Part shown: piece by piece, positions 3,653 to 34,127 of the stretch
Numbering within the stretch: the first letter of the stretch is position 1
Layout: every line of letters begins with the position of its first letter
From: a virus
Taxonomy: Duplodnaviria > Heunggongvirae > Uroviricota > Caudoviricetes
IMG/VR virus record: IMGVR_UViG_3300042881_003883
Span: 83,930-147,929 of that record
Reading direction: 5' to 3' (one strand)
DNA length: 64,000 nt
The notes under the pieces: model-generated
Told to the model about the DNA's origin: nothing
The model's input: only the letters and a program-made list of their open reading frames with translations
Databases searched by the model: none
Program-made: the position numbers and the translations under genes

Positions 3653-5044
3653 ATGAATAAAAAGAAAAAGATTTTATTGCTTTCTGATGATTTGCGAATG
3701 GCAAGTGGTATTGCCACTATGAGCAAAGCATTAGTAATGGGTACTGTTGACAAGTACGATTGGTTCCAAGTAGGAGCCGCAATTAATCACCCTGAGCAAG
3801 GTAAAGTATTGGATGTATCTGTTGATGTTGCCGCTCAAACTGGTGTAGCAGATGCTAGTGTTAAAATACTACCTTGGACTGGATATGGTGATGCTGGATT
3901 GGTTAGACAATTAATCAACGCTGAACAACCTGATGCTATATTACACTTTACCGACCCGAGATATTGGATTTGGTTATATGAGATGGAGCATGAGATTAGA
4001 CAAAATGTTCCAATTATGTTTTACGCTATTTGGGATGATTTACCAGACCCATTATATAATCGTAACTATTACGAAAGTTGTGATTGGATTGGATGCATTT
4101 CTCGTCAAACCTATGGTATCGTATCCCGTTTAACCGCATTAACGGACAAGCCAACTTGGAAACCTCATTCAGATTGGCAGGTATCCTATGTACCACATGG
4201 TATTAATTCAAAAGAATATTTCCCAACAGAAGTACCAGCCGAATTTCGTTCTGAGATATTAGGTGGTAAAGAATATGATTTTGTATTCTTTTGGTCAAAC
4301 CGAAATATTCGTAGAAAACAACCATCTGATGTTATTATGGCATTTAAACAATTTTGTGAGGAATTGGGTGAAGAAAAAGCATCTAAAGTTTGCTTAGTGA
4401 TGCACACACAACCTATCGATGAAAATGGTACCGATTTACCAACGGTTTATAGTACATTAGCACCAAATTGTAACGTTATATTTTCAGATAAACGTAGAAC
4501 TACAAATGAATTAAATTACCTATACAATATGGCTGATGTAACAATCAATATCGCTGGTAATGAGGGATTTGGATTAACAACCGCTGAATCTATAATGGCT
4601 GGTACCCCAATTATCGTAAACGTAACTGGTGGTTTGCAAGACCAATGTGGTTTTAGGTATAAAGATAGTGGAAAATTGGTTAATTCGGAAGATTATATCA
4701 AAATTGGTTCACTTCACAATTGGAGAGATTGGGAAGATAAATTAGAACCAGGACCTTGGGTTAGACCTGTATGGAGTAGAGCACAATCATTAACAGGTTC
4801 AGTTCCAACACCATATATTTGGGATGATAAAGTTGATATCTATGATGTTGCTAAAGCAATGATGGATATGTACAATACACCAAAAGAAACTCTTTTAGAG
4901 AATGGATTAAAGGGAAGAGAAGCTTTCATTGGTGAAATAGGATTAAGTTCAGAAAATATGTGTAAAACATTAGTTGATGGAATGGAAGGAACCTTTGAAA
5001 ATTGGAAACCTCGTAAATCATACGAACTATTTAAATTGAATTAA
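3653..5044 (+). CDS. glycosyltransferase, GT4-like (GT-B fold)
   Basis: C-terminal EX7E-type motif NEGFGLTTAESIMAGTPIIV. Confidence 0.7.
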   Translation: MNKKKKILLLSDDLRMASGIATMSKALVMGTVDKYDWFQVGAAINHPEQGKVLDVSVDVAAQTGVADASVKILPWTGYGDAGLVRQLINAEQPDAILHFTDPRYWIWLYEMEHEIRQNVPIMFYAIWDDLPDPLYNRNYYESCDWIGCISRQTYGIVSRLTALTDKPTWKPHSDWQVSYVPHGINSKEYFPTEVPAEFRSEILGGKEYDFVFFWSNRNIRRKQPSDVIMAFKQFCEELGEEKASKVCLVMHTQPIDENGTDLPTVYSTLAPNCNVIFSDKRRTTNELNYLYNMADVTINIAGNEGFGLTTAESIMAGTPIIVNVTGGLQDQCGFRYKDSGKLVNSEDYIKIGSLHNWRDWEDKLEPGPWVRPVWSRAQSLTGSVPTPYIWDDKVDIYDVAKAMMDMYNTPKETLLENGLKGREAFIGEIGLSSENMCKTLVDGMEGTFENWKPRKSYELFKLN

Positions 5045-5061
5045 GAAGAAAATAAAAAGTT

Positions 5062-6357
5062 ATGAATAAACCATTATTAGTATATCAAGCTCCAGTATTC
5101 ACTCGAAGTGGTTATGGTGACCATGCGAGAGATATCTTACGAAGCTTATTTGAAATGGATAAGTACGATGTTAAAGTTGTACCAACCAGATGGGGAAATA
5201 CTCCACAAAATCAAGTTGACCAAACAACTGAATTTGGTAAAAAGGTATTTGCAAATGTAATTACCGAATTGAACCGAAAGCCGGATATCTTTATGCAGAT
5301 GTCCGTTGCTAATGAATTTGAAGCAAAGGGTAATTTTAACATTGGTATTACTGCTGGTGTAGAAACTACTATTTTACCAAAGGAATTTATTGATGGTTCA
5401 AATAAAATGGATATGGTTATAGTACCATCTCAATTCACAAAGAATTTGATGTTAGGTACTGCATATCAAGAAAAAAATAATCAAACGGGGCAGATAGTAA
5501 ATGAGTTCAGAATTAGTAAACCAGTTGAAGTTTTGTTCGAAGGTGTAAATACTGAAATTTACTCAAACCCGGTCAACTCATTAACTGAGTTAGATAAATT
5601 AGAAACTGATTTTAATTTCTTATTTGTTGGGCATTGGTTAAAGGGAAATTTAGGGCAAGATAGGAAAGATGTAGGTATGGTTATTAAAACATTCGCTACA
5701 GTATTCAAATATCTACCTAAAGATAAAAGACCTGGTCTTATTATGAAAACCTCACATGCTGGATTTTCAGTAATGGATAGAGAAGCTACAAGAGATAAGA
5801 TTGATAATATATTAAAACCATTTGGTAAGGATGCACCTAAAGTATATCTTTTACATGGTGATTTAACTGATGATGAAATGGCATCATTATACCATCATCC
5901 AAAAGTTAAAGCAATGGTTTCATTTACTAAAGGTGAAGGATATGGTAGACCATTAGCTGAATTCACTATGACCGGTAAACCAATTGTTGTTTCTGGGTGG
6001 AGCGGACAAATGGATTTCTTACCAAAAGAACACACTATATTTTTAGAGGGTTCATTAACAAATATTGATGAATCCGCAGTTGATACATTTATATTAGCAA
6101 ATGCACAATGGTTTAGTGTAAACTACTCAGATGCGGCCAACAAATTATATAAGGTATTTAATGATTACGATGTACATTTAAAACAATCGGCTGGATTAAA
6201 ATCCAACACATTAAAGAATTTTACATTAGAAAAAATGCATGAAGTTTTTAAACAAATGATGGAAAGATATGAAAAGGGAATACCGCAGGTAAAACCATTC
6301 AACCTACCAAATTTAAACAAAAACAAAATGGAATTACCTAAACTAAATAAAGTATAA
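5062..6357 (+). CDS. glycosyltransferase, GT4-like (GT-B)
   Basis: TKGEGYGRPLAEFTMTGKPIVVS motif analogous to GT4 EX7E. Confidence 0.6.
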   Translation: MNKPLLVYQAPVFTRSGYGDHARDILRSLFEMDKYDVKVVPTRWGNTPQNQVDQTTEFGKKVFANVITELNRKPDIFMQMSVANEFEAKGNFNIGITAGVETTILPKEFIDGSNKMDMVIVPSQFTKNLMLGTAYQEKNNQTGQIVNEFRISKPVEVLFEGVNTEIYSNPVNSLTELDKLETDFNFLFVGHWLKGNLGQDRKDVGMVIKTFATVFKYLPKDKRPGLIMKTSHAGFSVMDREATRDKIDNILKPFGKDAPKVYLLHGDLTDDEMASLYHHPKVKAMVSFTKGEGYGRPLAEFTMTGKPIVVSGWSGQMDFLPKEHTIFLEGSLTNIDESAVDTFILANAQWFSVNYSDAANKLYKVFNDYDVHLKQSAGLKSNTLKNFTLEKMHEVFKQMMERYEKGIPQVKPFNLPNLNKNKMELPKLNKV

Positions 6358-6842
6358 TGGCAACTACTCCAAATCAGGCAATAAAGTATAAACCACTAAT
6401 ATTAGAAGAAAAACGTGTATCCCGTTCGGCTGTACAGCCGTATGGGGTATATCGTATATCTACTTACAAATATGCGGATGGTAATAAGGAATCCCTAAGT
6501 GGAGCCGATTCAACTATTATATTCGTAACGGGAATATATGAACAAAAGTTCTCAGCAATTAAATTATCATCAATTAAACCGGAAGATTTTTTCAAATGGT
6601 TTAAGAAATTGGAAGATAAAGCTAATAAAGTTTTAAATGAACAAAAAACTACAAATGTTGGATTATATGATATAGCAACTGTATATGATAGAGGTGGAGA
6701 ACGTATCTATAATAGTTACGTTAAAACTGGTATTGAATTAAAAAAGATTGAAAATCCATATCGTACATATAACAAAGATGGGATTCAATATATGAGTGAA
6801 GTATTTTTTAAGAAAAATGTATTAGAAGAATATTATGGTTAA
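6357..6842 (+). CDS. hypothetical protein (glycan locus)
   Basis: ORF tightly packed in operon; no recognisable motifs. Confidence 0.5.
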   Translation: MATTPNQAIKYKPLILEEKRVSRSAVQPYGVYRISTYKYADGNKESLSGADSTIIFVTGIYEQKFSAIKLSSIKPEDFFKWFKKLEDKANKVLNEQKTTNVGLYDIATVYDRGGERIYNSYVKTGIELKKIENPYRTYNKDGIQYMSEVFFKKNVLEEYYG

Positions 6843-7464
6843 TATAACATATGCAGTTACAGTTTGTAATGAAATTGAAGAGATTACAAAATTAATCAAT
6901 TTCATACATCCGAGAATTCAAAAAGAGGATGAGATTTTGATTCAATATGATTCAGATGGGGCTACTGAAGATGTGGTAAACTATCTAAGAATTATAGGTG
7001 AATTACATCAAAACATAAACATAATAAGTTTTCCACTTAATAAGGATTTTGCAAGTTTTAAAAACAACTTAAAGAATCATGCAAATGGTATCTTTATTTT
7101 CCAATTGGATGCAGATGAAATCCCATCGGAATTTTTGATTGAAAATATGCACGATTTAATCGAAGCTAACTTAGATATTGATTTATTCTTTGTACCAAGA
7201 GTTAATACCGTTGAAGGATTAACCGATGAACATATTAAAAAATGGGGATGGCAATTAAATCCAAATGGTTGGATTAACTGGCCTGATTTACAAACTAGAA
7301 TTTACCGAAGAACATCGGAGATTGAGTGGGATGGTAAAGTACATGAAAGAATCAAAGGTTATAATACATTAACTATCCTACCATTGCAAGAGGAATACGC
7401 TATCTATCACCCTAAAGGAATAGAAAGACAAGAAAAACAAAACGAATTGTACGATACTATATGA
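6835..7464 (+). CDS. glycosyltransferase family 2-like (GT-A)
   Basis: N-terminal YAVTVCNE (GT2 nucleotide-binding start) and DADE (DXD-like) motif. Confidence 0.6.
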   Translation: MVNITYAVTVCNEIEEITKLINFIHPRIQKEDEILIQYDSDGATEDVVNYLRIIGELHQNINIISFPLNKDFASFKNNLKNHANGIFIFQLDADEIPSEFLIENMHDLIEANLDIDLFFVPRVNTVEGLTDEHIKKWGWQLNPNGWINWPDLQTRIYRRTSEIEWDGKVHERIKGYNTLTILPLQEEYAIYHPKGIERQEKQNELYDTI

Positions 7465-8438
7465 GAATAGCATTTTTAACTGAAATGGGATTTAGTGGAA
7501 CTATCCCACCAACTCATAATAATATGAGAACTGAGTTTGCTTGGATGAACGCTCTTAATGCGGTTCACTATCCATTAGAAACTTATGATTCGGTTAAAAA
7601 CTATGATGTTGTATTTATCATATTTCCAAAAGGAAAAACCTATTTAAATTCTGAAGGTAGTACATTAGTAAATGGAGTAAATCCAGTATCTAAATATTTA
7701 CAACAACCAATAATACCAACTTTAAAAGAAAGTAATACTAAAGTATATTACATTCAAGAAGGACCACATTGGTGGTGGAATGATTATGAAGTTATAGACC
7801 AAATTCAGTTCTATAACTTTTTATCACTTACTGATGGTATATTTGCACACAATCTATCAGATTCTCAATATTATAGAGGATTATTCTGGAATAAAAAGGT
7901 AGAGATAATTCATTCACTTATGATAGAGGATTTCATCAAAGATATTCAACCTATTACTGAGGATAAAGTACTGATTGGTGGTAACTTCTCCCGATGGTAT
8001 GGTGGGTTTGAATCTTATATGGTAGCATCTGAATTTGGATTACCAATATGGGGACAAGAATCTCACTCAAAAAGAGTAAATGAAGGTGGTATTGGTAACC
8101 TATCCCACTTCCCAAGAATGAATTGGAACGATTGGATGGTAGAAGTATCTAAATTCAAATATGGTGTACATCTAATGCCAACGGTAGCAGCTGGTACATT
8201 CTCACTTAATTGTGCATATTTTGGGATACCTGTAATTGGTAATGAAAAGTTAGATACACAACGATTGCTACATCCAAACTTATCAGTAGATGTATCTGAT
8301 ATTGAATCAGCTATGTTAATGGTTGAGATGTTAAAAGACCCCATTTTCTACAAAAAGAAAAGTGAAGAAGCAAAAGATAATTACCAAACTTACTATACAA
8401 AAGAAGTTTGGTTAAAACAAATGATGAATAAAATATGA
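7461..8438 (+). CDS. hypothetical protein, possible glycosyltransferase
   Basis: Operonic (4 nt overlaps at both ends); weak GT-B C-terminal resemblance (GTFSLNCAYFGIPVIGNE). Confidence 0.5.
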   Translation: MRIAFLTEMGFSGTIPPTHNNMRTEFAWMNALNAVHYPLETYDSVKNYDVVFIIFPKGKTYLNSEGSTLVNGVNPVSKYLQQPIIPTLKESNTKVYYIQEGPHWWWNDYEVIDQIQFYNFLSLTDGIFAHNLSDSQYYRGLFWNKKVEIIHSLMIEDFIKDIQPITEDKVLIGGNFSRWYGGFESYMVASEFGLPIWGQESHSKRVNEGGIGNLSHFPRMNWNDWMVEVSKFKYGVHLMPTVAAGTFSLNCAYFGIPVIGNEKLDTQRLLHPNLSVDVSDIESAMLMVEMLKDPIFYKKKSEEAKDNYQTYYTKEVWLKQMMNKI

Positions 8439-9205
8439 TAACAGTTATATTAAATGGTTATAAGAGAGGCGAAAACCTCAACGAACAATTAGAAGCTCTA
8501 AGGAATCAAACGGTAAAGCCGGATGAGATTCTTTTATGGTATAATAATCCAGGTGATAACGATTTGTTGAATTATGATATTGGAACGGAAATTCCAGTTG
8601 CATATTGTAATTACAACTTTGGTGTATGGGCAAGATTCTACTTCGCAATGAACGCTAGAAATCCTTATGTTTGTGTATTTGATGATGATACAATCCCTGG
8701 CGAAAGATGGTTAGAAAATTGTATGGAAACTATGAAAACACATGAAGGTTTATTGGGTTCAGTTGGATTACTTTATCCAAACCCATTACCAGCGGAACAT
8801 TCATCTTATTACGAACACTACTTAAGATTCGGATGGCCGGAATTAGGTAACAATGAAAGAACTGTACAAGTTGATTTAGTTGGACATAGTTGGTTCTTTA
8901 AGAAAGAATGGTTATCTCATATGGTGAGAGAATTACCTGACCCAAAATACAATACCTGTGGTGAAGATATGCACTTTTCGTATATGTTACAAAAGTATGC
9001 AGGAATACCTACATTTGTACCGCCACATCCTAAAGATGATAAATCCCTATGGGGGAGTATCAAAGGAGCTGAATATGGTGGTGATGCTAACTCACTATGG
9101 GAATCAAACCAAGCTAGTGTAGAAGGTACACCATTTAAACAATTAATGAATCAATATTTTCACGAACAAAGAATTAAAGGTTGGAAATTAGTAAATGAAA
9201 AATAA
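8435..9205 (+). CDS. glycosyltransferase family 2-like
   Basis: ITVILNGYKRGENLNEQLEALRNQT...CVFDDDTIP (GT2 N-terminus plus DXD). Confidence 0.6.
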   Translation: MITVILNGYKRGENLNEQLEALRNQTVKPDEILLWYNNPGDNDLLNYDIGTEIPVAYCNYNFGVWARFYFAMNARNPYVCVFDDDTIPGERWLENCMETMKTHEGLLGSVGLLYPNPLPAEHSSYYEHYLRFGWPELGNNERTVQVDLVGHSWFFKKEWLSHMVRELPDPKYNTCGEDMHFSYMLQKYAGIPTFVPPHPKDDKSLWGSIKGAEYGGDANSLWESNQASVEGTPFKQLMNQYFHEQRIKGWKLVNEK

Positions 9206-10196
9206 TACAATATTACTCTGTTTTGGGACAAGACCCGAATGGTTAAAAATTAAACCATTGATTAAGATTATGGATAGAAGTGAATATAAACTTCTATTTA
9301 CAGGTCAACACCCTGATTTACTTCAAAATGTTAAAGTAGATTATAAAATTAATATAAACAATTCTGATAATAGATTGGATTCAATTATATCAGATTGTAT
9401 GTTACAATTCCCTAATGGGGAATTCAGTTCAGTATTAGTTCAAGGTGATACTGGTTCAGCATTTGGCTGTGCATTAGCAGCATTCAATAGACAGTTAAAG
9501 ATTTACTATTTGGAAGCTGGGTTAAGAAGTGGTGATTTACAACACCCATACCCTGAAGAGGGATATAGACAAATGATAGCAAGAATAGCAGATGTGAATC
9601 TTGCACCAACTCAATTATCGGCTAATAATCTAATAAAAGAAAAAGTACATGGTAAAATTCATGTAGTTGGAAACTCTGTATTGGATAATTTGGTAGATTT
9701 TGGTGACCCAACTTATGAAAACTTTGTACTGATTACTTTACATCGTAGAGAAAATCATTATTGGATGGATAAGTGGTTTACAGAACTTAATGATTTAGCA
9801 ATAGCTAATCCTGATTTGGAATTTATTTTACCAATTCATCCAAATCCAAATGTTCAAAAATGGAAACATCTATTAACCAGTGTTAATGTGGTTGAACCAA
9901 TGGAACATACTGATATGATTTTACATATTAAGAAATGTAGATTCATTATTTCGGATAGTGGTGGATTACAAGAAGAGGGCTCATTTTTTAATAAGCAAGT
10001 AATTGTATGTAGAACTACAACCGAAAGACCTGAAGGATTATATACAGGTCATTTACATTTATGTAAAAATCCAAATGATTTAAAAAAATTATTTGGAAAA
10101 GTTAATAATAATCCGTATATTAGTGAAAATTGTCCATATGGTGATGGTGATACTGCTATTAAAGTTTTAAATATATTAAGAGATGAAAAATTTTAG
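9195..10196 (+). CDS. wecB: UDP-N-acetylglucosamine 2-epimerase (non-hydrolysing, WecB/MnaA family)
   Basis: GDTGSAFGCALAAFNRQLKIYYLEAGLRS matches WecB GDTTT..ALAAF....HVEAGLRT; HPDLL... and HVVGN motifs. Confidence 0.8.
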   Translation: MKNNTILLCFGTRPEWLKIKPLIKIMDRSEYKLLFTGQHPDLLQNVKVDYKININNSDNRLDSIISDCMLQFPNGEFSSVLVQGDTGSAFGCALAAFNRQLKIYYLEAGLRSGDLQHPYPEEGYRQMIARIADVNLAPTQLSANNLIKEKVHGKIHVVGNSVLDNLVDFGDPTYENFVLITLHRRENHYWMDKWFTELNDLAIANPDLEFILPIHPNPNVQKWKHLLTSVNVVEPMEHTDMILHIKKCRFIISDSGGLQEEGSFFNKQVIVCRTTTERPEGLYTGHLHLCKNPNDLKKLFGKVNNNPYISENCPYGDGDTAIKVLNILRDEKF

Positions 10197-11333: not shown

Positions 11334-11336
11334 ATT

Positions 11337-11963: not shown

Positions 11964-12628
11964 TGAAAGTAGAAAAATTAATTAGTAAAAATCAACCATC
12001 AAATTGGTTTAATCAAATAACAAAAGAATGTAGGGATGAATATCCAATTCATTTAGTTGACATAGATGCATCGGAAAAACTCGTTGATATGGGATGTAAT
12101 GTTGGTGGTTTTAGTGAAGCATGGAATTATCGCTTTCATAATATCTTAGCAATTGATGCAGCCTCATATAATGTTGAACAATATAAAAGTAGACATTCTC
12201 ATCAAATTTTACACAAAGCAGTATCATCTAAAGATGGTGAAATTGTAAAGTTAAAAAAATATATGGGTAACAATGATGATGATACTAATTCTGGAAACTT
12301 TTCAATAACAGGTTTTGTAAATGAACATAACAAACATGGATTTAGGGGTGATGAATATGAAGAGGTTGAAACTATTAGTTTAGAAACCATTTTAGAAATG
12401 GTTGGTACTATTGGTTTGTTGAAAATTGATATAGAAGGTGCTGAAGTGGATGTATTGTACCAAAAGGATTTATCAAAAGTAAATTACATAACTGGAGAAT
12501 TCCATAATTTTATTGGTAAAGAAAATCAATCAAAATTATTTGGATGGATTGGTAATACTCATACTGAAATATATTCTGTTGGTGATGGTGTTAGTTCTCA
12601 TTTTATAAAAATGTGGAAAAGAAAATAG
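11963..12628 (+). CDS. FkbM-family SAM-dependent methyltransferase
   Basis: MGCNVGGF (SAM motif I) and LLKIDIEGAEVDVL (FkbM signature). Confidence 0.7.
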   Translation: MKVEKLISKNQPSNWFNQITKECRDEYPIHLVDIDASEKLVDMGCNVGGFSEAWNYRFHNILAIDAASYNVEQYKSRHSHQILHKAVSSKDGEIVKLKKYMGNNDDDTNSGNFSITGFVNEHNKHGFRGDEYEEVETISLETILEMVGTIGLLKIDIEGAEVDVLYQKDLSKVNYITGEFHNFIGKENQSKLFGWIGNTHTEIYSVGDGVSSHFIKMWKRK

Positions 12629-12629
12629 T

Positions 12630-13355
12630 ATGAAAATAGCACTATGTTTACATGGTTTATTTGATTCAACAACTGATGGTAGTTCCAATGGTTATGATGG
12701 ATACAACCATATTAAAAAACACATTTTAGATATTACTGATACTGATGTGTTTATCCATAGTTGGGATATTGAAAAAGAGAGTGAAATCACTAAGTTATAT
12801 AATCCAACGTCAGCCATATTTGAAGCCCCAAAAGATTTTAATGAATTGGTAAATGGTAGAGGTTTAAATAATTTGAGTGGAACACCACGTTCACCTCAAA
12901 GTGTATTATCCCATCTTTATAGTGTAACTGAATCAATGAAGTTACCATATATAACTAATTCAGAATATGATATCATTATTAAAGCTCGTTTTGATTTGGG
13001 TAGAATAAATAGAGATACATCTGGACCAGGTAGAGGTAACCCATACCCAGTTCAATGTATTAATTTTCAAACTGAAATCGAATCTGATAAAATATATATG
13101 GCAGATTGGAATCATTTCAAAATGGGACCAGCGGATATGTGGTTTTATGGTACAATGGAAACTATGAAACCATTTACATCATTATATAATTCATTAGAGG
13201 AGCAAATGGAATTTAGAAGTCCATTTCACACATTTGCAGCTCAGATAGAAGGAAACCCTGGTGACCTTTCAAATTCCATAGCATTTTATAAATGGTGGAT
13301 GATACAAAATGGACTTTGGGAAAATAGAATAAATTTACAAACAATATGGGAATAG
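12630..13355 (+). CDS. hypothetical protein; paralog of the C-terminal domain of the 31724..33217 product
   Basis: KIALCLHG...DTDVFIHSWD...DIIIKARFD parallels KIALCFSG...DIDVYGSFWD...DIVIRARTD in the 31724 product. Confidence 0.5.
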   Translation: MKIALCLHGLFDSTTDGSSNGYDGYNHIKKHILDITDTDVFIHSWDIEKESEITKLYNPTSAIFEAPKDFNELVNGRGLNNLSGTPRSPQSVLSHLYSVTESMKLPYITNSEYDIIIKARFDLGRINRDTSGPGRGNPYPVQCINFQTEIESDKIYMADWNHFKMGPADMWFYGTMETMKPFTSLYNSLEEQMEFRSPFHTFAAQIEGNPGDLSNSIAFYKWWMIQNGLWENRINLQTIWE

Positions 13356-14044
13356 AATTACCAATAGTAGTGTACACTCACACCGATATGAAGGATGTAT
13401 GGCCAATGTTTTTTGGACAATTCAAAAAATATATCAATGGTTATAAAGTGTATGTGGCTGTTAATCAAATAGATACGCAAATACCATCGGATTATATCCA
13501 ATTGGTATATGATGATTCAAAATCATATACAGAGCGCTGGAGACAAATACTTCCACAAATTGAGGAAGATGTTATTATGTTTTTGCATGAGGATATGATA
13601 TTATTCGATACACCTAATTTTGAATTATTAGAAAAGTATTATGGTTATGTTAAAAGTGGAGTAGTTGAGAGTATTAAAATGATATTAGCAGGTGATTCAT
13701 TTCTTCCATCAACCATAGATAGTACATTAGTTACCAATCAATACGCAAAGTTTTCAATCCAACCAACACTAGTTAAAAAGGAAATATTTCAAAATTTAGT
13801 TAATACTATTGGTTCGTTAAATATTTGGCAATTTGAAGAAGCTATTATTTCATATGGTCGGGATTTTATGATACGAGTTGGTAGTGAGAAAAAAAGAGGT
13901 ATGTATCACTATGATAGTATTGTTTTCCCTTATATAGCAACTGCTATTAATAAAGGAAAATGGAATATGAGTGAATACCAAAAAGAATTGGATAAAATGT
14001 TTAATGAATATGGTGTAATGCCATTTGAAAGAGGAATAGTATGA
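13346..14044 (+). CDS. hypothetical protein (glycan locus)
   Basis: Operonic ORF. Confidence 0.5.
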   Translation: MGIELPIVVYTHTDMKDVWPMFFGQFKKYINGYKVYVAVNQIDTQIPSDYIQLVYDDSKSYTERWRQILPQIEEDVIMFLHEDMILFDTPNFELLEKYYGYVKSGVVESIKMILAGDSFLPSTIDSTLVTNQYAKFSIQPTLVKKEIFQNLVNTIGSLNIWQFEEAIISYGRDFMIRVGSEKKRGMYHYDSIVFPYIATAINKGKWNMSEYQKELDKMFNEYGVMPFERGIV

Positions 14045-15408
14045 TAAAATTAATAGTATTTGATTTAGATGGAGTTTTAGTAGAAGCTAAGAATATCCAC
14101 TTTGATGCACTAAATAATGCATTAGGACCTGAATATGAAATAAGTTGGGCTGAACACCTTTCAACTTATGATGGTTTGAAAACAAACCAAAAGTTGAATA
14201 TGTTGAGTGAACAAAAGGGATTACCAACTGAATTACATAAACAAGTATGGGATAAAAAACAAAAGTACACATTACAGATGTTAAAAGAGTTGAAACCAAA
14301 TCAAACTCTACAATCGGTAATGAATGCACTTTCTGAAGATGGATACAAATTAGCAGTTTGTTCTAATTCAATCAGAAAGACAGTTTTGACTGTACTTTCA
14401 AAATTGGGAATAATGGAGTTTATGGATTTAATTATCTCAAATGAAGATGTTAAGAATTCTAAACCACACCCTGAGATGTATTGGAAAGCAATTTCAATGA
14501 TGAGTTGTTTACCAGAAGAAACTCTAATTGTAGAGGATTCACCTTATGGGTTACTTGCGGCATCTCGTTCCAAATCTCATATTTTGAGAGTTAGAAATCC
14601 ACAAGAAGTAACCTATACGAACATATTTAAAAAATTAACTGAAATACAAATGGGTAAAATAGAAACAACACCTAAATGGGTAGATAAAAAGTTGAATGTA
14701 TTAATTCCAATGGCTGGTGCTGGAAGTAGATTCCAAACTGCTGGTTATACATTCCCAAAACCACTAATTGATGTAGAGGGTAAACCAATGATTCAAGTTG
14801 TGGTAGAAAATTTGAACATAGATGCAAATTACATATATGTAGTTCAGAAAGCACATAGAGAGCAATATAACTTAGATACCTTACTAAATTTAATTACACC
14901 TGGTTGTAAAGTAGTAGAAGTAGATACATTAACCGAAGGAGCTGCTTGTACGGCATTATTGGCTAAAGAATTTATTGATTCAGAGGCACCACTTTTCTTT
15001 GCAAATTCAGACCAATTTGTAGAATGGGATTCAAACGAATTCTTTTACAAAATGAATGAGAACGATTGTGATGGTGGAATACCAACATTTAAAGCAACTC
15101 ACCCAAAATGGAGTTTTGCTAAGTTAGATGATGATGGATTTGTAACCGAAGTACAAGAGAAAAACCCAATATCTGATTTGGCAACAATTGGTTTTTATTA
15201 TTGGAAACATGGTTCGGATTTTGTGAAATACGCTGAAGAGATGATTGAGCAAGATATTAGAGTGAATGGAGAATTCTATGTTTGTCCTGTTTATAACAAC
15301 GCAATTAAAGCTGGATTAAAGGTTAGAACATTCGATGTACCTAAAATGTGGGGATTGGGAACCCCTGAGGATTTAAAATATTATTTAGAAAATTATAAAA
15401 ATGATTAA
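14041..15408 (+). CDS. bifunctional HAD-superfamily phosphatase / sugar-phosphate nucleotidyltransferase fusion
   Basis: N-terminus VFDLDGVLVEA (HAD motif I DxDG), downstream SNS and K...EDS motifs; C-terminal half LIPMAGAGSRF...KPLIDVEGKPMI (nucleotidyltransferase G-x-G-x-R motif). Confidence 0.7.
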   Translation: MIKLIVFDLDGVLVEAKNIHFDALNNALGPEYEISWAEHLSTYDGLKTNQKLNMLSEQKGLPTELHKQVWDKKQKYTLQMLKELKPNQTLQSVMNALSEDGYKLAVCSNSIRKTVLTVLSKLGIMEFMDLIISNEDVKNSKPHPEMYWKAISMMSCLPEETLIVEDSPYGLLAASRSKSHILRVRNPQEVTYTNIFKKLTEIQMGKIETTPKWVDKKLNVLIPMAGAGSRFQTAGYTFPKPLIDVEGKPMIQVVVENLNIDANYIYVVQKAHREQYNLDTLLNLITPGCKVVEVDTLTEGAACTALLAKEFIDSEAPLFFANSDQFVEWDSNEFFYKMNENDCDGGIPTFKATHPKWSFAKLDDDGFVTEVQEKNPISDLATIGFYYWKHGSDFVKYAEEMIEQDIRVNGEFYVCPVYNNAIKAGLKVRTFDVPKMWGLGTPEDLKYYLENYKND

Positions 15409-16228
15409 AACAGCTACTATAATAACAACTCATAATCCTAAATTTCATCATGCATTTAATTTATTGGAATCCTATATAAAATATGTAGAGAAACCACATG
15501 ACTTATATTTTATTTTTACAAATGAAAATGAAATGTTTGATTTTAATTGGAAATCCGAATACAAATATATGGATAATTATAAACCATTAATATTGGATGA
15601 ATCATTGAGAGATAAAAAAAGTATTGTTAATGTTAAAAAAATGTTTGCATTACAATCTATAATTAACGATTATGATTATGTTGGTGTATATGATTGTGAA
15701 TCTGAATTTGTTAAAAATTGTAACTTAGATACCATATATGAAAATATTGCATCATATGATTATGTAAAGGCTAACGAATCTGAAATTGGAGGTAATATAA
15801 TAAAGTTAGCAGCAGGATATATGGGATTGGATACTAATGAAATATTAATAAATCAAACTAAAAATTATTCTCTATATTGGTGGTTTAGTGAAATACCTGT
15901 TTATAAAAAAGAATTGTTTATAGATTTCTATGATTGGTATAAATCATCTGAAAATTTAAATACATTACAATCAGAATATTATGCATTTGATTATTTGGTT
16001 TATATAATATGGTTAGTTTGTTTTAAAAATTTTAAAATCAAACATATTGAATTACCATTTAAATCCGAAATTTCAGCAGTTGAGGATTTTAGATTAACAC
16101 AAGAACAAAAGGATATTGTTAGTAATGAATTTCAATCGTATTGGTCTGTAAATGGTGTAAACCATAAAAAGTATGATAATATAAAATTAATAGTACATTC
16201 GGATAATGCTGGATATATAGATAAATAA
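15401..16228 (+). CDS. hypothetical protein (glycan locus)
   Basis: Operonic ORF, AT-rich. Confidence 0.5.
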   Translation: MIKTATIITTHNPKFHHAFNLLESYIKYVEKPHDLYFIFTNENEMFDFNWKSEYKYMDNYKPLILDESLRDKKSIVNVKKMFALQSIINDYDYVGVYDCESEFVKNCNLDTIYENIASYDYVKANESEIGGNIIKLAAGYMGLDTNEILINQTKNYSLYWWFSEIPVYKKELFIDFYDWYKSSENLNTLQSEYYAFDYLVYIIWLVCFKNFKIKHIELPFKSEISAVEDFRLTQEQKDIVSNEFQSYWSVNGVNHKKYDNIKLIVHSDNAGYIDK

Positions 16229-16238
16229 AAAAATAATA

Positions 16239-17477
16239 ATGACAAATTATCAAAGAGTTACCTTTATTATACCTTGTAGGAATAATTTAAGATTTTTACA
16301 ACAAGCCGTTTCATCAATTGAAGAACATTATGGTGATGGGCATGATATTGTGATAATGGATGATGCATCAACTGATGATAGTTGGGAATGGATTGAAAAA
16401 TATGGTTCGGATAAGAATCATATTTTAACTTATAGAAATGGTGGAAAAGATAGAGTTGGGCATACTGTTTTATACGATATAGGTATTCAATTAGCTAGAA
16501 CACCAATCGTAACAATATTACATTCAGATATGATTGTAACACCAAACTATGTTGGGAATATGTTGAAACACCTTAAACCAATGAGTGTAGTTTCAGCCAC
16601 TAGAATCGAACCACCATTGCATCCACCTGGTCCTGAAAAATATGTTAAGAATTTTGGAATGGATGTGGATGAGTTTACTGATGCCAAATCCAATTTCTTA
16701 AAATTTGTATATGAAGCTGAGTATCTAAATGAGGGTAAAGTTACTAATGGTATCTTTGCACCTTGGATGTTATATAAAGAAGATTTTGTATCTATTGGTG
16801 GGCATGATAAATTATTTGCACCTATGGAGTTGGAAGATTCTGATATATTTAATAGGTTCCATTTGAATGGGTACCAATTAATTCAGAGTAGAGATGCATT
16901 TGTATATCATATGACTTGTAGAGGTAGTAGATTTAAAGATGGTATCGAAATAGAAAAAGAGATACCACTACCAGATGGTACAATATGGTTCAAACCAAAA
17001 GACTCTGAAGAATATTTACAACTAAGAGCAACCAAATTTAGAGAGTGGTGGAGAAAGTGGCATACTGATGTTTTACATGATGATAATATGATGCCAATAG
17101 TTCCTAAAAGATATTCAACATCATTTATAATTGAAAATTGTAGACCACAACTACTTTCAATATTAGAACCCTGGTGTGATGATATCTATGTAGATTGTGA
17201 ATTTAACTCATATATTATGAATGAAGATTCTAAATCGGAATATATAATATCCGATAAAGTTCATTCAATTGGTAATGATGTTAAAAATAATGTACACATT
17301 AAATTTGATGCTAGTAAATTAACTAATCAACATTTTACTGAATTTATTAAAAAATTACCATTTATTATTGAACAAACTGGGCAATTGGGTACATTCAATT
17401 GGGATATATTTGAAATAAGTATTTTATCTTTAAATACAATTGACATGATTAAACCTCACTTTAAAAACGTATTTTAA
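16239..17477 (+). CDS. glycosyltransferase family 2 with extended C-terminal domain
   Basis: RVTFIIPCRNNLRFLQQAVSSI...IVIMDDASTDDS (classic GT2 N-terminus and DXD). Confidence 0.7.
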   Translation: MTNYQRVTFIIPCRNNLRFLQQAVSSIEEHYGDGHDIVIMDDASTDDSWEWIEKYGSDKNHILTYRNGGKDRVGHTVLYDIGIQLARTPIVTILHSDMIVTPNYVGNMLKHLKPMSVVSATRIEPPLHPPGPEKYVKNFGMDVDEFTDAKSNFLKFVYEAEYLNEGKVTNGIFAPWMLYKEDFVSIGGHDKLFAPMELEDSDIFNRFHLNGYQLIQSRDAFVYHMTCRGSRFKDGIEIEKEIPLPDGTIWFKPKDSEEYLQLRATKFREWWRKWHTDVLHDDNMMPIVPKRYSTSFIIENCRPQLLSILEPWCDDIYVDCEFNSYIMNEDSKSEYIISDKVHSIGNDVKNNVHIKFDASKLTNQHFTEFIKKLPFIIEQTGQLGTFNWDIFEISILSLNTIDMIKPHFKNVF

Positions 17478-18361
17478 TGAAAAAAAAGACATTAGTATGT
17501 ATCCATATAATGCCATCTGAAATAGAAATGTTTCAAAGGTTTATGGAACAATATAGAAAAGCATTATCGTATTGTAGAGAATATGATGTTACTATAAAAG
17601 CAACTTTGAATTTAAACCCAAAACTTACGGATTGGGAAAATAGTGAGTTAAAGCAAGATTACTTTATGAATATCTTCAATGCTCAGTTTCAATATAAAGA
17701 ATTGAAAAATATAAATCAAATTATATTAGATGAATCTATGTGGGGTACAACTCAACAAAAGAGAGAATCTATTAAAATTGATTACTTTGACCAATTTATA
17801 TTTTGTGATACGGATATTGTGATGCATGAACATCAGTTAATATACCAATTACAAGCAGCAGAAAGATTGGAGGGTATGTATATACTTTCACCATCAATTC
17901 CAAAGTGGTGGGATATGAGTTGGGATGGTTTAGTAAGTGATTCAATGAAAAATGCCGAAGCATTTAGTGAAGAAACTATGTTAGGTGCATTTACACAAAC
18001 TCCAACTAATATGCAACTTAAGAAGTTACCATATATTAAATTTGGATGTGGTATGCATACTCTATATTCTAAATCATTTTGGCAGTTTGTTGGAATACCT
18101 GAATCATTTGGTGGTTATGGACCCGAAGATACTTATGGTATGACAGCTGGTAGAATAGCATTAGAAGCTGGTTATGTAGTGAATCAATACGTTTTAGATG
18201 GATTATACATTACAGAAGATTATATAAATAGAGTTCCATCATTTGATGGTAAAATTAAAACTATTGACAAAAAATCTGAATTTTACAAAAACGCAGAAGC
18301 AATTGGTAGAGATGAATTGGTGGCATTTGTAGAAAGATTAAAACAAAAAAGTATCACTTAA
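17477..18361 (+). CDS. hypothetical protein, last gene of glycan operon
   Basis: ATG overlaps the upstream stop; CDTDIVMHE could be a DXD-like motif. Confidence 0.5.
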   Translation: MKKKTLVCIHIMPSEIEMFQRFMEQYRKALSYCREYDVTIKATLNLNPKLTDWENSELKQDYFMNIFNAQFQYKELKNINQIILDESMWGTTQQKRESIKIDYFDQFIFCDTDIVMHEHQLIYQLQAAERLEGMYILSPSIPKWWDMSWDGLVSDSMKNAEAFSEETMLGAFTQTPTNMQLKKLPYIKFGCGMHTLYSKSFWQFVGIPESFGGYGPEDTYGMTAGRIALEAGYVVNQYVLDGLYITEDYINRVPSFDGKIKTIDKKSEFYKNAEAIGRDELVAFVERLKQKSIT

Positions 18362-18666: not shown

Positions 18667-18673
18667 TAACATA

Positions 18674-27715: not shown

Positions 27716-27767
27716 AAAATCAAATAACCTATATTTATATACATATAGTAGAAACTTAAAATAGTAT

Positions 27768-34106: not shown

Positions 34107-34127
34107 GAAAATCGTAAGATTTTTAAG

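What the first reader, a model, noticed from the sequence alone, without database searches (positions are those of the whole stretch)
3653..18361. ~15 kb phage-encoded glycan biosynthesis operon with at least six glycosyltransferases and sugar-nucleotide tailoring enzymes
About 21 contiguous + strand genes with overlapping start/stop codons run from 3653 to the terminator at 18674-18700. They include two GT4-like and at least three GT2-like glycosyltransferases, a WecB-type UDP-GlcNAc 2-epimerase, a compact DegT-like PLP enzyme, a GNAT, an FkbM methyltransferase and a HAD-phosphatase/nucleotidyltransferase fusion. They also include about eight proteins of no recognisable family, two of them paralogous to a domain at 31.7-33.2 kb. 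Phages usually carry one to three GTs, for DNA glucosylation or O-antigen conversion. An autonomous multi-step pathway of this size resembles giant-virus glycosylation machinery. It could build a glycan on virion proteins, with the Ser/Thr-rich tail fiber at 24694 as an obvious acceptor, or remodel the host capsule or O-antigen during infection.
Basis: partly seen in the sequence, partly recalled or inferred. Interest (0 to 1): 0.85.

Follow-up and report, generated by a model that had tools for sequence, protein, structure and literature searches.

The report
Jumbo-phage multi-glycosyltransferase sugar operon
A large virus of aquatic bacteria carries a tightly packed 15 kb operon with seven or eight sugar-adding enzymes plus enzymes that make unusual activated sugars; similar clusters are already annotated in cultured marine phages, and what they decorate is still unknown.

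Summary
Window 3653-18666 carries 18 tightly packed + strand ORFs (not 21), ending at a terminator at 18673-18696.

No ORF in the 64 kb window has more than two membrane segments. There is therefore no initiating transferase, flippase or polymerase. Composition matches the rest of the phage, so this is not a recent capture from a host.

The cluster is not unprecedented. The core, in order nuclease, GT-B, GT-B, GT-A and later GT2, is syntenic in cultured Flavobacterium phage immuto and, apart from a weakly matched terminal GT2, in Microcystis phage Mel-JY01. It also occurs in hundreds of viral contigs. Cyanophages P-SSM2 and S-SCSM2R carry 22-24 comparable genes.

The core is conserved as well as the replication proteins across phages with hosts in different phyla. 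I therefore favour a phage-made acceptor, most likely virion protein (about 0.4). Host envelope remodelling and DNA glycosylation remain open.

Verdict: a new member of a known, functionally unresolved kind. Interest is moderate.

The parts
2486..2497 (+). Promoter-like element TTTGTATATTTG (Bacteroidota-type -7 box TAnnTTTG). It is the only exact (zero-mismatch) copy of this motif between 2486 and the terminator at 18673; one 1-mismatch match lies inside the operon at 8670-8681.
   Evidence: Motif occurs 17 times vs 2.9 expected, mostly intergenic and on the + strand. Intergenic listing.
2516..3382 (+). PD-(D/E)XK nuclease. It is the conserved upstream neighbour of the glycosyltransferase module in all relatives examined.
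   Evidence: Pfam PDDEXK_1 E 2e-21. Synteny.
3432..3629 (+). 65-aa conserved ORF of unknown function directly upstream of GT-B1.
   Evidence: Present in 56 of 80 related loci at 60-89% identity, and at 35% in immuto. No Pfam family.
3653..5044 (+). GT-B1: GT4-type glycosyltransferase, a core gene of the lineage. It keeps the EX7E motif (EGFGLTTAE).
   Evidence: Pfam Glycos_transf_1, 34.6 bits. Best PDB hit is chlorovirus B736L (3oy2), E 1.5e-13. At least 8000 protein clusters. 46% identity to immuto gp181.
5062..6357 (+). GT-B2: divergent paralogue of GT-B1, also a core gene. It keeps EX7E (EGYGRPLAE).
   Evidence: phrog_2170 E 8e-16. NCBIfam glycosyltransferase E 1.4e-6. PDB 3oy2 E 6e-3. phmmer against GT-B1 E 9e-4.
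6357..6842 (+). 161-aa ORF of unknown function, weakly conserved in position.
   Evidence: 26-50% identity in 35 related loci. No family hit. No similarity to the immuto ORF at the same position.
6835..7464 (+). Core 209-aa GT-A (GT2) glycosyltransferase with a DAD motif.
   Evidence: Pfam Glycos_transf_2 E 8e-7. 40-44% identity at the same position in immuto and Mel-JY01 and in MAG-binned phage contigs.
7461..8438 (+). Probable GT-B glycosyltransferase (weak evidence).
   Evidence: Pfam WsaF_C E 0.02. tblastn E 4e-8, 21% identity, to immuto gp173, annotated 'GDP-mannose-dependent mannosyltransferase'. hhalign against GT-B1 was negative.
8435..9205 (+). GT-A (GT2) glycosyltransferase with a DDD motif.
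   Evidence: Pfam Glycos_transf_2 E 3e-8.
9195..10196 (+). Non-hydrolysing UDP-GlcNAc 2-epimerase (WecB type), predicted to make UDP-ManNAc.
   Evidence: Pfam Epimerase_2 E 1e-62. NCBIfam TIGR00236 wecB, 218 bits against a cut-off of 210; the NeuC model scores only 27 bits.
10183..10959 (+). GT-D fold (DUF1792-like) glycosyltransferase with an invariant S-D-G-E (DXE) motif at residues 27-30.
10908..11333 (+). GNAT N-acetyltransferase. The JGI gene call starts at about 10950.
   Evidence: Pfam Acetyltransf_1 E 6e-9. Gene call.
11337..11963 (+). Compact (198-208 aa) DegT/WecE-type PLP sugar aminotransferase-like protein. It retains SFHIKK.
   Evidence: Pfam DegT E 3e-19. NCBIfam LegC/PseC/DesI hits. 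83-90% identity in relatives and 40% to immuto gp172.
11963..12628 (+). FkbM-family methyltransferase. It belongs to the variable part, being absent from all 80 fetched relatives.
   Evidence: Pfam Methyltransf_21 E 4e-13. TIGR01444, 53.9 bits against a cut-off of 37.7. Absence shown.
12630..13355 (+). phrog_13607-family protein of unknown function. It is paralogous to the C-terminal half of 31724-33217.
   Evidence: phrog_13607 E 7e-11. BLASTP E 0.04. Three homologues flank the HAD-NTP gene in cyanophage S-CAM9.
13346..14044 (+). 232-aa ORF of unknown function.
   Evidence: No family hit. hhalign was negative against GT-A and against the phrog_13607 alignment.
14041..15408 (+). Fusion of a beta-phosphoglucomutase-like HAD domain and a sugar-1-phosphate nucleotidyltransferase. 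Predicted role: sugar-phosphate to NDP-sugar.
   Evidence: Pfam HAD_2 E 2e-31 plus NTP_transferase E 2e-9. NCBIfam bPGM and RmlA-like hits. PDB 4evw E 2e-20. 57% full-length identity in T4-like cyanophages.
15401..16228 (+). 275-aa ORF of unknown function; a rare, variable part of the operon.
   Evidence: Only 28 homologues in 5.8 billion proteins. No PDB or Pfam hit from the profile.
16239..17477 (+). 412-aa GT2 glycosyltransferase with an extra C-terminal domain. It is the terminal core glycosyltransferase: 42% identity over the full length to immuto gp169.
   Evidence: Pfam Glycos_transf_2 E 1.4e-17. Comparison. Best PDB hit 5hea (GalT1/dGT1 C-terminal domain), E 1.4e-3.
17477..18361 (+). 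GT-A fold glycosyltransferase, recognised only from the predicted structure. D111-x-D113 is nearly invariant.
   Evidence: AF2 pLDDT 96, pTM 0.93. 207 PDB matches with E at or below 1e-3, and the top 50 listed are all GT-A glycosyltransferases. Alignment.
18433..18666 (+). 77-aa single-pass membrane protein preceded by the second promoter motif (ATATTTATA at 18373).
   Evidence: Hydropathy scan. Motif. 52% identity to an ORF in immuto that lies elsewhere in that genome.
18673..18696 (+). Intrinsic-terminator-like hairpin closing the unit.
   Evidence: 10 bp stem, 6 GC pairs, T-rich tail.
27245..33217 (+). Possible second glycan-related block. It holds an APS-kinase-like kinase (27245-27715), a WavE-like protein (29842-30591), a 156-aa protein shared with cyanophage clusters (30582-31052), a NUDIX protein (31021-31407) and a 497-aa protein whose C-terminal half is a phrog_13607 domain (31724-33217).
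   Evidence: Pfam hits. NCBIfam apsK scores well below its cut-off. Cyanophage homologies.

Best explanation
The region is one transcription unit of about 16 kb in a jumbo phage that probably infects Bacteroidota. It runs from a host-type promoter at 2486 to the terminator at 18673-18696. It encodes a soluble glycan assembly line that works in the cytoplasm and does not use a lipid carrier.

Shown by the analyses:
- A WecB epimerase is present; UDP-ManNAc as its product follows from the family assignment.
- A fused HAD mutase/phosphatase and nucleotidyltransferase is present; activation of a second sugar as an NDP-sugar follows from the domain families.
- There are seven firm and one probable glycosyltransferases of three folds (GT-B, GT-A, GT-D). 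None has a membrane segment.

Inferred:
- A compact DegT aminotransferase together with a GNAT makes an acetamido-deoxy sugar.
- An FkbM enzyme O-methylates a sugar.

The operon has two layers. The conserved core is GT-B1, GT-B2, the 209-aa GT-A and the 412-aa GT2. It always lies downstream of the same PD-(D/E)XK nuclease. The variable tail comprises the GT-D protein, further GT-A proteins, the tailoring enzymes and the unknown ORFs, and it differs between relatives.

Inference on the acceptor: the core is conserved as strongly as the replication proteins in phages whose hosts belong to different phyla, and nothing is present to start, flip or polymerise a lipid-linked glycan. The acceptor is therefore most likely made by the phage itself, most probably one or more virion proteins. 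In this model the core enzymes lay down a conserved inner glycan. The variable enzymes add strain-specific outer sugars, in the way that giant viruses and mycobacteriophages decorate their particles.
For: - Enzyme and fold assignments.
- No ORF in the 64 kb window has more than two membrane-like segments, and there is no Pfam hit to an initiating transferase, flippase or polymerase.
- Core synteny and identity in relatives: GT-B1 63-82%, GT-B2 50-78% and the 209-aa GT-A 46-81%, against clamp loader 57-87% and nuclease 50-84%.
- Flavobacterium phage immuto: GT-B1 46%, GT-B2 44%, 209-aa GT-A 44% and 412-aa GT2 42%, against nuclease 36%.
- Microcystis phage Mel-JY01: 46-56%, 45% and 40% for the same first three, against clamp loader 39%. 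Its GT2 match is weak (23% over 235 aa, E 3e-8).
- MAG-binned phage contigs with GC from 27 to 48% carry the same gene order.
- No isolate bacterial genome among 185,579 species has a relative of GT-B1.
- The best solved relative of both GT-B proteins is chlorovirus B736L.
- The characterised GT-D (DUF1792) enzyme described in the paper read here (PMC5063993), like the solved homologues matched, acts in cytoplasmic O-glycosylation of a serine-rich repeat protein.
- An unusually Ser/Thr-rich (30%) repeat protein is encoded 6 kb downstream.
- GT-B1 and the core GT-A are acidic (pI 5.1 and 4.8), which would be unexpected for enzymes that bind DNA (my assumption; not compared with known DNA glycosyltransferases).
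Against: - There is no direct evidence that any virion protein is glycosylated.
- The 836-aa protein is not shown to be structural. It sits behind a different promoter motif from the operon.
- The operon appears to be read from a host-type promoter together with a nuclease at the end of the replication module. That fits an early function on DNA or on the host at least as well.
- The parallel with serine-rich-repeat glycosylation is at fold level only. Both GT-B proteins keep EX7E, so they are not a catalytic-plus-chaperone pair like Gtf1/Gtf2.
- Soluble glycosyltransferases can also act on host lipid-linked intermediates.
- About 200 kb of the genome was not seen.
Confidence: 0.4

Rival explanations
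1. Host envelope remodelling. The soluble phage glycosyltransferases and sugar-nucleotide enzymes act early in infection on the host's own undecaprenyl-linked LPS, capsule or O-glycan intermediates. The host flippases and ligases export the altered glycan. The result would block superinfection or stop progeny from sticking to cell debris. This is the classical reading of cyanophage 'LPS' clusters.
For: - Expression from a host-type promoter, probably early.
- The gene families (WecB, WecE-like, GNAT, a WavE-like protein at 29842) are typical of LPS and enterobacterial-common-antigen loci.
- Published interpretations of P-SSM2 and S-SCSM2R take this view.
- The variable tail of the operon resembles the diversity of serotype loci.
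Against: - Four core glycosyltransferases stay syntenic and 40-56% identical in phages of Flavobacterium, Microcystis and contigs binned with very different phyla. Host surface glycans are not conserved at that scale.
- There is no initiating transferase, flippase, polymerase or ligase in 64 kb.
- GT-B1 has no relative in isolate bacterial genomes.
Confidence: 0.25
2. DNA glycosylation. At least the conserved GT-B pair, which is always next to the PD-(D/E)XK nuclease and clamp loader, glycosylates a modified base in phage DNA. The other enzymes would extend or supply the sugars, giving glycan-hypermodified DNA that resists host nucleases.
For: - The nuclease-GT-B1 adjacency is conserved even in a 484 kb huge phage and at the end of the replication module.
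- GT-B1 passes the Pfam cut-off for GT4-conflict (28.9 vs 26 bits).
- Phage glycosyltransferases are known to build mono- to trisaccharides on 5hmC, often beside polymerase or clamp genes and epimerases.
- GT-B2 is mildly basic (pI 8.3).
Against: - No enzyme that makes a hydroxymethyl-pyrimidine lies in the window. The only thymidylate-synthase homologue passes the curated ThyA equivalog cut-off (356 vs 325 bits). The only DNA methyltransferase is of the N6/N4 type.
- Neither GT-B protein gave a sequence hit to T4 alpha- or beta-glucosyltransferase at E up to 1.
- GT-B1 and the core GT-A are acidic.
- In the two-fifths of the immuto genome whose annotation was read (first 64.5 kb), the DNA modification pathway is 7-deazaguanine/DpdA, unlinked to the cluster, and no second thymidylate-synthase homologue is annotated.
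- Seven or eight glycosyltransferases plus aminotransferase, acetyltransferase and methyltransferase exceed any known DNA glycan.
Confidence: 0.15
3. A soluble or lipid glycoconjugate. The GT4 enzymes glycosylate a small molecule or diacylglycerol, as their nearest curated families MshA, BshA and Mgs do. The product would be a metabolite or glycolipid used during infection.
For: The best NCBIfam hits of GT-B1 are MshA, BshA and a monoglucosyl-diacylglycerol synthase, all far below their cut-offs.
Against: These are generic hits to retaining GT4 enzymes. Eight glycosyltransferases and tailored amino sugars point to an oligo- or polysaccharide. No lipid or thiol biosynthesis genes accompany the cluster.
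Confidence: 0.08

Closest known systems
Glycan gene cluster of Flavobacterium phage vB_FspM_immuto (NC_055915, gp183-gp169)
   Same: The order is the same: PD-(D/E)XK nuclease, small ORF, GT-B, GT-B, small ORF, 207-aa GT2, and at the end a GT2 of about 400 aa. Identities are 46%, 44%, 44% and 42%. It also has a compact WecE-like protein (40% identity), a methyltransferase, an acetyltransferase and a sugar epimerase. The host phylum is probably the same.
   Different: immuto has 14 genes in about 11 kb in a 160 kb genome. It lacks the WecB epimerase, the GT-D protein, the HAD-nucleotidyltransferase fusion, the phrog_13607 protein and the last GT-A. It carries a full-length WecE and a PglD-like protein instead. 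I found no functional study of its cluster.
'LPS'/cell-wall gene clusters of T4-like cyanophages (P-SSM2: 24 genes; S-SCSM2R: 22 genes with 13 glycosyltransferases; S-CAM9)
   Same: These are lytic aquatic myoviruses with many glycosyltransferases plus sugar-nucleotide enzymes and without export machinery. The HAD-nucleotidyltransferase fusion (57% identity), the phrog_13607-family proteins and the 156-aa protein are shared with S-CAM9.
   Different: The phage lineage is different: the clamp loader is only 36-37% identical. The nuclease-linked GT-B/GT-B/GT-A core is absent from the cyanophage cluster I inspected. Function is unknown there too.
Giant-virus autonomous glycosylation (chlorovirus capsid glycans; Mimivirus fibril glycans)
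   Same: The virus encodes both glycosyltransferases and pathways for rare amino and acetamido sugars, and acts in the cytoplasm without host ER or lipid-carrier machinery. The best solved relative of both GT-B proteins is chlorovirus NY-2A B736L. The gene sets are clade-specific and variable.
   Different: Those are eukaryotic viruses whose glycans on virion proteins have been demonstrated. Here no glycoprotein is shown. B736L itself has no proven acceptor, and it is also a generic top hit for DNA glucosyltransferases.
Serine-rich-repeat protein O-glycosylation (Fap1: Gtf1/Gtf2, Gtf3, DUF1792, CgT)
   Different: Sequence identity is about 10%. Both phage GT-B proteins look catalytic. There is no accessory Sec system. 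The Ser/Thr-rich candidate acceptor is unverified and lies in another transcription unit.
Mycobacteriophage virion glycosylation (Freeman et al. 2023, cited in PMC12619734)
   Same: Phage-encoded glycosyltransferases modify the phage's own capsid and tail proteins.
   Different: According to the genome notes returned by the literature search, those phages carry about two glycosyltransferases. I did not examine whether they make their own sugar nucleotides. Here there are seven or eight plus five tailoring enzymes.
Moraphages (aquatic jumbo phages of Bacteroidota; PMC12619734)
   Same: Genomes of 200-307 kb, mostly from freshwater, with predicted Flavobacteriia hosts. They are reported to be related to the ERM huge phages; this window also matches an Al-Shayeb-type uncultured huge-phage record (LR756508), which I could not confirm to be an ERM phage. 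Four core orthologous groups are putative glycosyltransferases. That number matches the four-glycosyltransferase core found here.
   Different: That paper does not dissect the cluster.

Membership tests
Virus-autonomous glycosylation machinery (giant-virus / phage virion glycosylation) | Virus-encoded glycosyltransferases | tested here: met
   Seven firm glycosyltransferase folds and one probable.
Virus-autonomous glycosylation machinery (giant-virus / phage virion glycosylation) | Virus-encoded sugar-nucleotide synthesis and tailoring | tested here: met
   WecB, HAD-nucleotidyltransferase, DegT-like, GNAT and FkbM. An SDR epimerase/dehydratase lies at 47412-48263.
Virus-autonomous glycosylation machinery (giant-virus / phage virion glycosylation) | Glycan attached to virion proteins | not testable with these tools
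   Needs glycoprotein staining or MS of virions. The Ser/Thr-rich 836-aa protein is only a candidate.
Bacterial Wzx/Wzy- or ABC-dependent O-antigen/capsule locus (captured from a host) | Initiating phosphoglycosyl transferase (WecA/WbaP type), polytopic membrane protein | tested here: not met
   No Pfam hit. No ORF in the window has more than two membrane-like segments.
Bacterial Wzx/Wzy- or ABC-dependent O-antigen/capsule locus (captured from a host) | Flippase/polymerase or ABC exporter | tested here: not met
   Same scans.
Bacterial Wzx/Wzy- or ABC-dependent O-antigen/capsule locus (captured from a host) | Host-like composition or near-identical bacterial counterpart | tested here: not met
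   GC, GC3 and codon usage equal those of the rest of the phage. No relative of GT-B1 in isolate genomes. No megablast hit in phage records.
Phage DNA glycosylation (T4 alpha/beta-glucosyltransferase; 5hmC glycan hypermodification) | Linked enzyme that makes a hydroxymethyl-pyrimidine (dCMP/dUMP hydroxymethylase, or C5-methyltransferase plus 5mYOX) | tested here: not met
   Within the 64 kb window there is only a ThyA that passes the equivalog cut-off, and an N6/N4 methyltransferase. The rest of the genome was not seen.
Phage DNA glycosylation (T4 alpha/beta-glucosyltransferase; 5hmC glycan hypermodification) | Glycosyltransferase related to known DNA glycosyltransferases, with a basic DNA-binding groove | tested here: inconclusive
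   No sequence hit to T4 glucosyltransferases at E up to 1. GT4-conflict Pfam match just above cut-off. pI is 5.1 for GT-B1 and 8.3 for GT-B2. No structure model was made of these two.
Serine-rich-repeat protein glycosylation system (GtfA/GtfB type) | GT-D (DUF1792) glycosyltransferase | tested here: met
Serine-rich-repeat protein glycosylation system (GtfA/GtfB type) | Catalytic GT-B paired with a non-catalytic GT-B chaperone | tested here: not met
   Both GT-B proteins keep the EX7E motif (sequences).
Serine-rich-repeat protein glycosylation system (GtfA/GtfB type) | Adjacent serine-rich repeat acceptor and accessory Sec export | tested here: inconclusive
   A 30% Ser/Thr repeat protein lies 6 kb downstream in another transcription unit. 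No SecA2/SecY2 was found, and none would be expected in a phage.
Moraphage lineage | Clustering with moraphage MCP, TerL and PolB; four core glycosyltransferase orthologous groups | not testable with these tools
   Only indirect agreement: habitat, size, predicted host, relatives and a four-glycosyltransferase core.

The most novel reading that the evidence does not exclude
The nuclease-linked GT-B/GT-B/GT-A/GT2 core, together with a strain-variable tail of further glycosyltransferases (including a GT-D enzyme) and amino-sugar tailoring enzymes, would be a phage-autonomous glycosylation system that does not use a lipid carrier. It would coat the particle, fibres or capsid, of a very abundant lineage of aquatic phages with a complex, strain-specific glycan. 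This would be a bacterial-virus counterpart of the giant-virus glycan machinery, present in thousands of environmental phage variants and testable in the cultured phage immuto.
Probability: 0.3. Interest if true: 0.75.

Novelty: new member of a known kind. Interest (0 to 1): 0.45.

Why it matters
Large glycan gene clusters in lytic aquatic phages have been noted since 2005, but no acceptor has ever been identified for them. This locus adds three useful facts.

- A four-glycosyltransferase core is conserved in sequence and position, next to a nuclease, across phages whose hosts belong to different phyla. That argues for a phage-made rather than a host-specific target.
- The rest of the cluster is a variable cassette, like a serotype locus.
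- One member has the rare GT-D fold; the solved and characterised examples matched here act in protein O-glycosylation.

GT-B1 alone has more than 8000 protein clusters in metagenomes, so whatever it does is common in lakes and estuaries. The cultured relative immuto makes the question testable at the bench. If virions prove to be glycosylated, this would affect how we think about phage adsorption, particle stability and grazing or immune recognition in aquatic systems.

Tried and rejected
**Searches that found nothing**
- Megablast of the operon against 50,697 phage records gave no match.
- All-against-all BLASTP and phmmer of the window proteins found no significant paralogues apart from the weak pairs GT-B1/GT-B2 and GT-A/GT-A. 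The second claimed paralogue of the 31.7-33.2 kb domain could not be found.
- The 836-aa Ser/Thr-rich protein has no match in phage records or the PDB.
- The search for close relatives of GT-B1 in bacterial genomes found none. The profile search found only MAG contigs that show phage gene order.
- Literature searches for immuto and Mel-JY01 found no study of these clusters.
- No tRNA genes are present in the window.

**ORFs I could not assign**
- 15401-16228: 28 homologues, but the profile finds nothing in the PDB or Pfam. hhalign against a GT-A profile was negative.
- 13346-14044: hhalign was negative against GT-A and against phrog_13607.
- 7461-8438: hhalign against GT-B1 was negative, so it remains only 'probable'.
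- The phrog_13607 family: no PDB match and only a non-significant resemblance to the WavE-like ORF.
- 6357-6842 against the ORF at the same position in immuto: no similarity.
- 10183-10959 by sequence alone finds nothing in the PDB. Only the predicted structure revealed the GT-D fold.

**Ideas considered and dropped**
- A legionaminic or sialic acid pathway: there is no NeuB or NeuA, and the epimerase is WecB-type rather than NeuC-type.
- A cyanophage origin, suggested by CpeT, heme oxygenase and a bilin reductase: the promoters and nearest relatives point to Bacteroidota.
- The N-terminal half of 31724-33217 as a sulfotransferase: it looks like one by eye, but no profile supports it.
- The sigma-70 consensus scan found fewer sites than in shuffled sequence, so it is uninformative here.

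Full report
**What is in the sequence**

The window is entirely + strand coding and has about 31% GC. It is identical to part of a 270,754 bp JGI metagenome contig. Proteins from the operon occur on contigs of up to 477 kb and in 143-203 blocks of the assembly collection. This is therefore a widespread jumbo phage.

Upstream of the finding lie a T4-like clamp loader (741-2451) and a PD-(D/E)XK nuclease (2516-3382). From 3653 to 18361 there are 17 contiguous ORFs, followed by a 77-aa ORF at 18433-18666. A strong terminator-like hairpin sits at 18673-18696. Eleven of the 17 junctions overlap by 1-14 nt. The coordinates, strand and terminator are correct.

**Enzyme content**

Pfam and NCBIfam confirm the following:
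- a GT4 glycosyltransferase (3653-5044);
- three GT2 glycosyltransferases (6835-7464, 8435-9205, 16239-17477);
- a non-hydrolysing WecB-type UDP-GlcNAc 2-epimerase, 218 bits against a cut-off of 210;
- a GNAT acetyltransferase;
- a 208-aa DegT/WecE-like protein that keeps the SFHxxK lysine;
- an FkbM methyltransferase;
- a fusion of a beta-phosphoglucomutase-like HAD domain with a sugar-1-phosphate nucleotidyltransferase.

Three ORFs with no Pfam family could be assigned by other means.
- 5062-6357 matches phrog_2170 'glycosyltransferase' (E 8e-16). Like the first GT-B, its best solved relative is chlorovirus B736L. Both proteins keep the EX7E motif.
- 17477-18361 gave a model with pLDDT 96. 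It matches 207 PDB chains at E at or below 1e-3, and the 50 best listed are all GT-A glycosyltransferases. A D-x-D motif is nearly invariant.

7461-8438 is a probable GT-B on weak evidence. The operon thus holds seven firm glycosyltransferases and one probable one, of three folds.

Six ORFs remain unassigned: 6357-6842, 12630-13355, 13346-14044, 15401-16228, 18433-18666, and strictly also 7461-8438.

Only 12630-13355 shares a family (phrog_13607) with the C-terminal half of 31724-33217.

**What is absent**

No ORF on the + strand of the 64 kb window has more than two membrane-like segments. No profile for an initiating phosphoglycosyl transferase, a flippase, a polymerase, an ABC exporter or a ligase was hit. 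The operon cannot by itself make a surface polysaccharide through a lipid carrier.

GC (31.2 vs 32.4%), GC3 (20.7 vs 21.4%) and codon frequencies (r = 0.97) match the rest of the window. The operon is therefore long resident in the phage and not a fresh capture.

**Transcription and host**

Intergenic regions carry two recurrent motifs.
- TTYGTATATTTG occurs 17 times against 2.9 expected. It contains TAnnTTTG, which from my own knowledge is the -7 element of Bacteroidota sigma-A promoters.
- ATATTTATA occurs at nine intergenic + strand sites.

One exact copy of the first motif lies at 2486, after a hairpin and before the nuclease gene. The only other match between there and 18673 is a 1-mismatch one inside the GT2 gene at 8670, which may be chance. 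The second motif precedes 18433, 20272, the Ser/Thr-rich gene at 24694 and others. I infer a single unit of about 16 kb, transcribed by the host polymerase from the nuclease gene to the terminator. I also infer a separate, possibly later, promoter class for the fibre-like gene. Neither inference has been tested.

Three observations point to a Bacteroidota host:
- the first motif;
- 81-93% nucleotide identity of part of the thymidylate synthase gene to Flavobacterium phage immuto;
- binning of related contigs with Bacteroidota MAGs.

**Relatives**

A scan of IMG/VR found 210 loci encoding relatives of the first GT-B at 63-100% identity.

Across 23 long loci the order clamp loader, nuclease, small ORF, GT-B1, GT-B2, (small ORF), 209-aa GT-A is constant. 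The glycosyltransferases are as conserved as the replication proteins. Genes 7461-14044 occur only in the closer relatives. Genes 11963-12628 and 15401-18666 were absent from every fetched locus, although many of those loci end within 10 kb downstream of GT-B1 and so may not reach that far. This makes them a variable tail, with that caveat.

The same core, plus the terminal 412-aa GT2, is present and annotated in cultured Flavobacterium phage vB_FspM_immuto. There it is a 14-gene cluster that includes two WecE-like proteins, a methyltransferase, a PglD-like protein and an epimerase. Most of the core is also present in Microcystis phage Mel-JY01, where the terminal GT2 match is weak. The nuclease-GT-B1 pair persists in a 484 kb huge phage. 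Rhodothermus phage RM378 also carries a GT-B1 homologue.

No isolate genome among 185,579 bacterial and archaeal species holds a relative of GT-B1. The eight MAG hits include five long enough to inspect. All five show the phage gene order, with GC from 27 to 48% in the three measured.

The HAD-nucleotidyltransferase fusion is 57% identical over its full length to proteins of T4-like cyanophages. In S-CAM9 it sits in a 10 kb cluster with at least four glycosyltransferases, three phrog_13607-family proteins and a homologue of window ORF 30582-31052.

**Literature**

- P-SSM2 carries 24 'LPS' genes in two clusters (PMC1079782).
- S-SCSM2R carries 22 cell-wall genes including 13 glycosyltransferases (PMC12801897).
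- 'Moraphages' are aquatic jumbo phages of 200-307 kb with predicted Flavobacteriia hosts, related to ERM huge phages. Four of their core orthologous groups are glycosyltransferases (PMC12619734). This may be the same or a sister lineage, which I could not test.

The premise that phages carry only one to three glycosyltransferases is therefore wrong for aquatic myoviruses. In none of these cases has the acceptor been determined.

**Most likely mechanism**

Shown: the operon has a supply arm and an assembly arm. The supply arm comprises WecB, the HAD-nucleotidyltransferase fusion, the DegT-like protein, the GNAT and FkbM. An SDR epimerase/dehydratase lies 30 kb away at 47412-48263. The assembly arm consists of soluble glycosyltransferases.

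Inferred from family knowledge: the products include UDP-ManNAc, an NDP-hexose and an N-acetylated amino-deoxy sugar, made as WecE and WecD make one for the enterobacterial common antigen, together with O-methylation.

Inferred from comparative data: host surface glycans are highly variable, yet the four core glycosyltransferases stay syntenic and 40-56% identical in phages of Flavobacterium, Microcystis and others, and are more conserved than the adjacent nuclease. The core therefore most likely acts on something the phage itself supplies.

With no lipid-carrier machinery, acidic core enzymes, a GT-D enzyme whose characterised homologue O-glycosylates a serine-rich protein in the cytoplasm, and chlorovirus B736L as the nearest solved relative, I favour glycosylation of virion proteins. 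In this model a conserved inner glycan carries a strain-variable outer part. I put this at about 0.4.

**Rivals**

- Host envelope remodelling through host lipid-linked intermediates (about 0.25). It fits the probable early promoter and the traditional reading, but fits the cross-phylum conservation poorly.
- DNA glycosylation (about 0.15). It fits the conserved nuclease and replication neighbourhood, the marginal GT4-conflict match and published DNA glycan pathways. Against it, the window has no hydroxymethylase or 5mYOX, the thymidylate synthase passes the curated ThyA cut-off, and immuto modifies its DNA through an unlinked 7-deazaguanine/DpdA pathway. About 200 kb of this genome was not seen.
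- A small-molecule or lipid glycoside (below 0.1).

**Verdict**

However, it is an expanded member of a kind of phage gene cluster that is already annotated in cultured phages and discussed in the literature. Its interest lies in three things: the conserved nuclease-linked core, the GT-D enzyme, and the fact that a cultured relative makes the long-open acceptor question testable.

Noticed in passing
window 2486, 19670, 27216, 34154, 34377, 36610, 36941, 39857, 46051, 48810, 55259, 59330, 61745 (+ strand): Recurrent intergenic motif TTYGTATATTTG (17 matches vs 2.9 expected). It contains the Bacteroidota-type -7 promoter element TAnnTTTG, which suggests a Bacteroidota (Flavobacteriia) host and host-polymerase transcription of these genes.
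   Followed up: partly
window 18373, 20244, 24682, 27731, 29040, 41502, 42054, 45516, 63083 (+ strand): A second intergenic motif, ATATTTATA, lies just upstream of a different set of genes, including the Ser/Thr-rich 836-aa ORF. It may be a phage-specific (late?) promoter class. Its overall count (13 vs 6.3 expected) is only marginally enriched.
   Followed up: partly
window 34107-34207, 34330-34432, 36560-36672, 36895-37002, 57550-57646, 58005-58101, 60185-60291: Seven copies of a conserved intergenic cassette of about 100 nt. The consensus runs AAAATAATT...AAAAGGCTTGTTTATATCAGG...TTCGTATATTTG...AAGAGATA...ATTAAACCCCTAAAA...ATG. It looks like a promoter plus a conserved 5' leader in front of small genes and larger ones.
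   Followed up: partly
window 24400-24666: Phage-encoded ribosomal protein bS21 (Pfam Ribosomal_S21, E 1.6e-13), immediately upstream of the Ser/Thr-rich ORF.
   Followed up: no
window 33214-33900, 53790-54302, 54290-54931: A CpeT/CpcT-like protein, a heme oxygenase and a PcyA-like ferredoxin-dependent bilin reductase (95 bits, below the equivalog cut-off of 206). These sit in a phage whose promoters and relatives point to a non-cyanobacterial host, so bilin synthesis genes here lie outside a cyanophage.
   Followed up: partly
window 27245-33217: A second block with possible glycan genes. It holds an APS-kinase-like P-loop kinase (far below the apsK cut-off, so the substrate is uncertain), a WavE-like protein, a NUDIX protein, a weak cupin, and a 497-aa protein whose N-terminal half resembles a sulfotransferase by eye only. 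ORF 30582-31052 and the phrog_13607 domain are shared with cyanophage S-CAM9's glycan cluster.
   Followed up: partly
window 24694-27204: An 836-aa protein with 30% Ser+Thr, pI 4.3, repeats of the type (V/I)SSSQQIxxxGF and a duplicated YKYYTDARV. It has no homologue in 50,697 phage records or in the PDB. It causes the local drop in GC and AT skew.
   Followed up: partly
window 51309-52412: A thymidylate synthase of 367 aa, with insertions relative to typical ThyA. Part of the gene is 81-93% identical at the nucleotide level to Flavobacterium phage immuto, although the rest of the two genomes is far more divergent. This suggests recent exchange or an intron/intein-like insert.
   Followed up: no
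window 55559-57463; 46052-47407; 27768-28340: GroES/GroEL pair, also present in immuto. An N6/N4 DNA methyltransferase carrying an I-TevI-type DNA-binding domain. An HNH endonuclease 41% identical to one in immuto.
   Followed up: no
L099 (immuto NC_055915 1-35300): The cultured relative immuto encodes a complete 7-deazaguanine DNA modification set (FolE, QueD, QueE, QueC, a QueF-like protein, DpdA). I did not check whether the window's phage has it, because it would lie outside the window.
   Followed up: no
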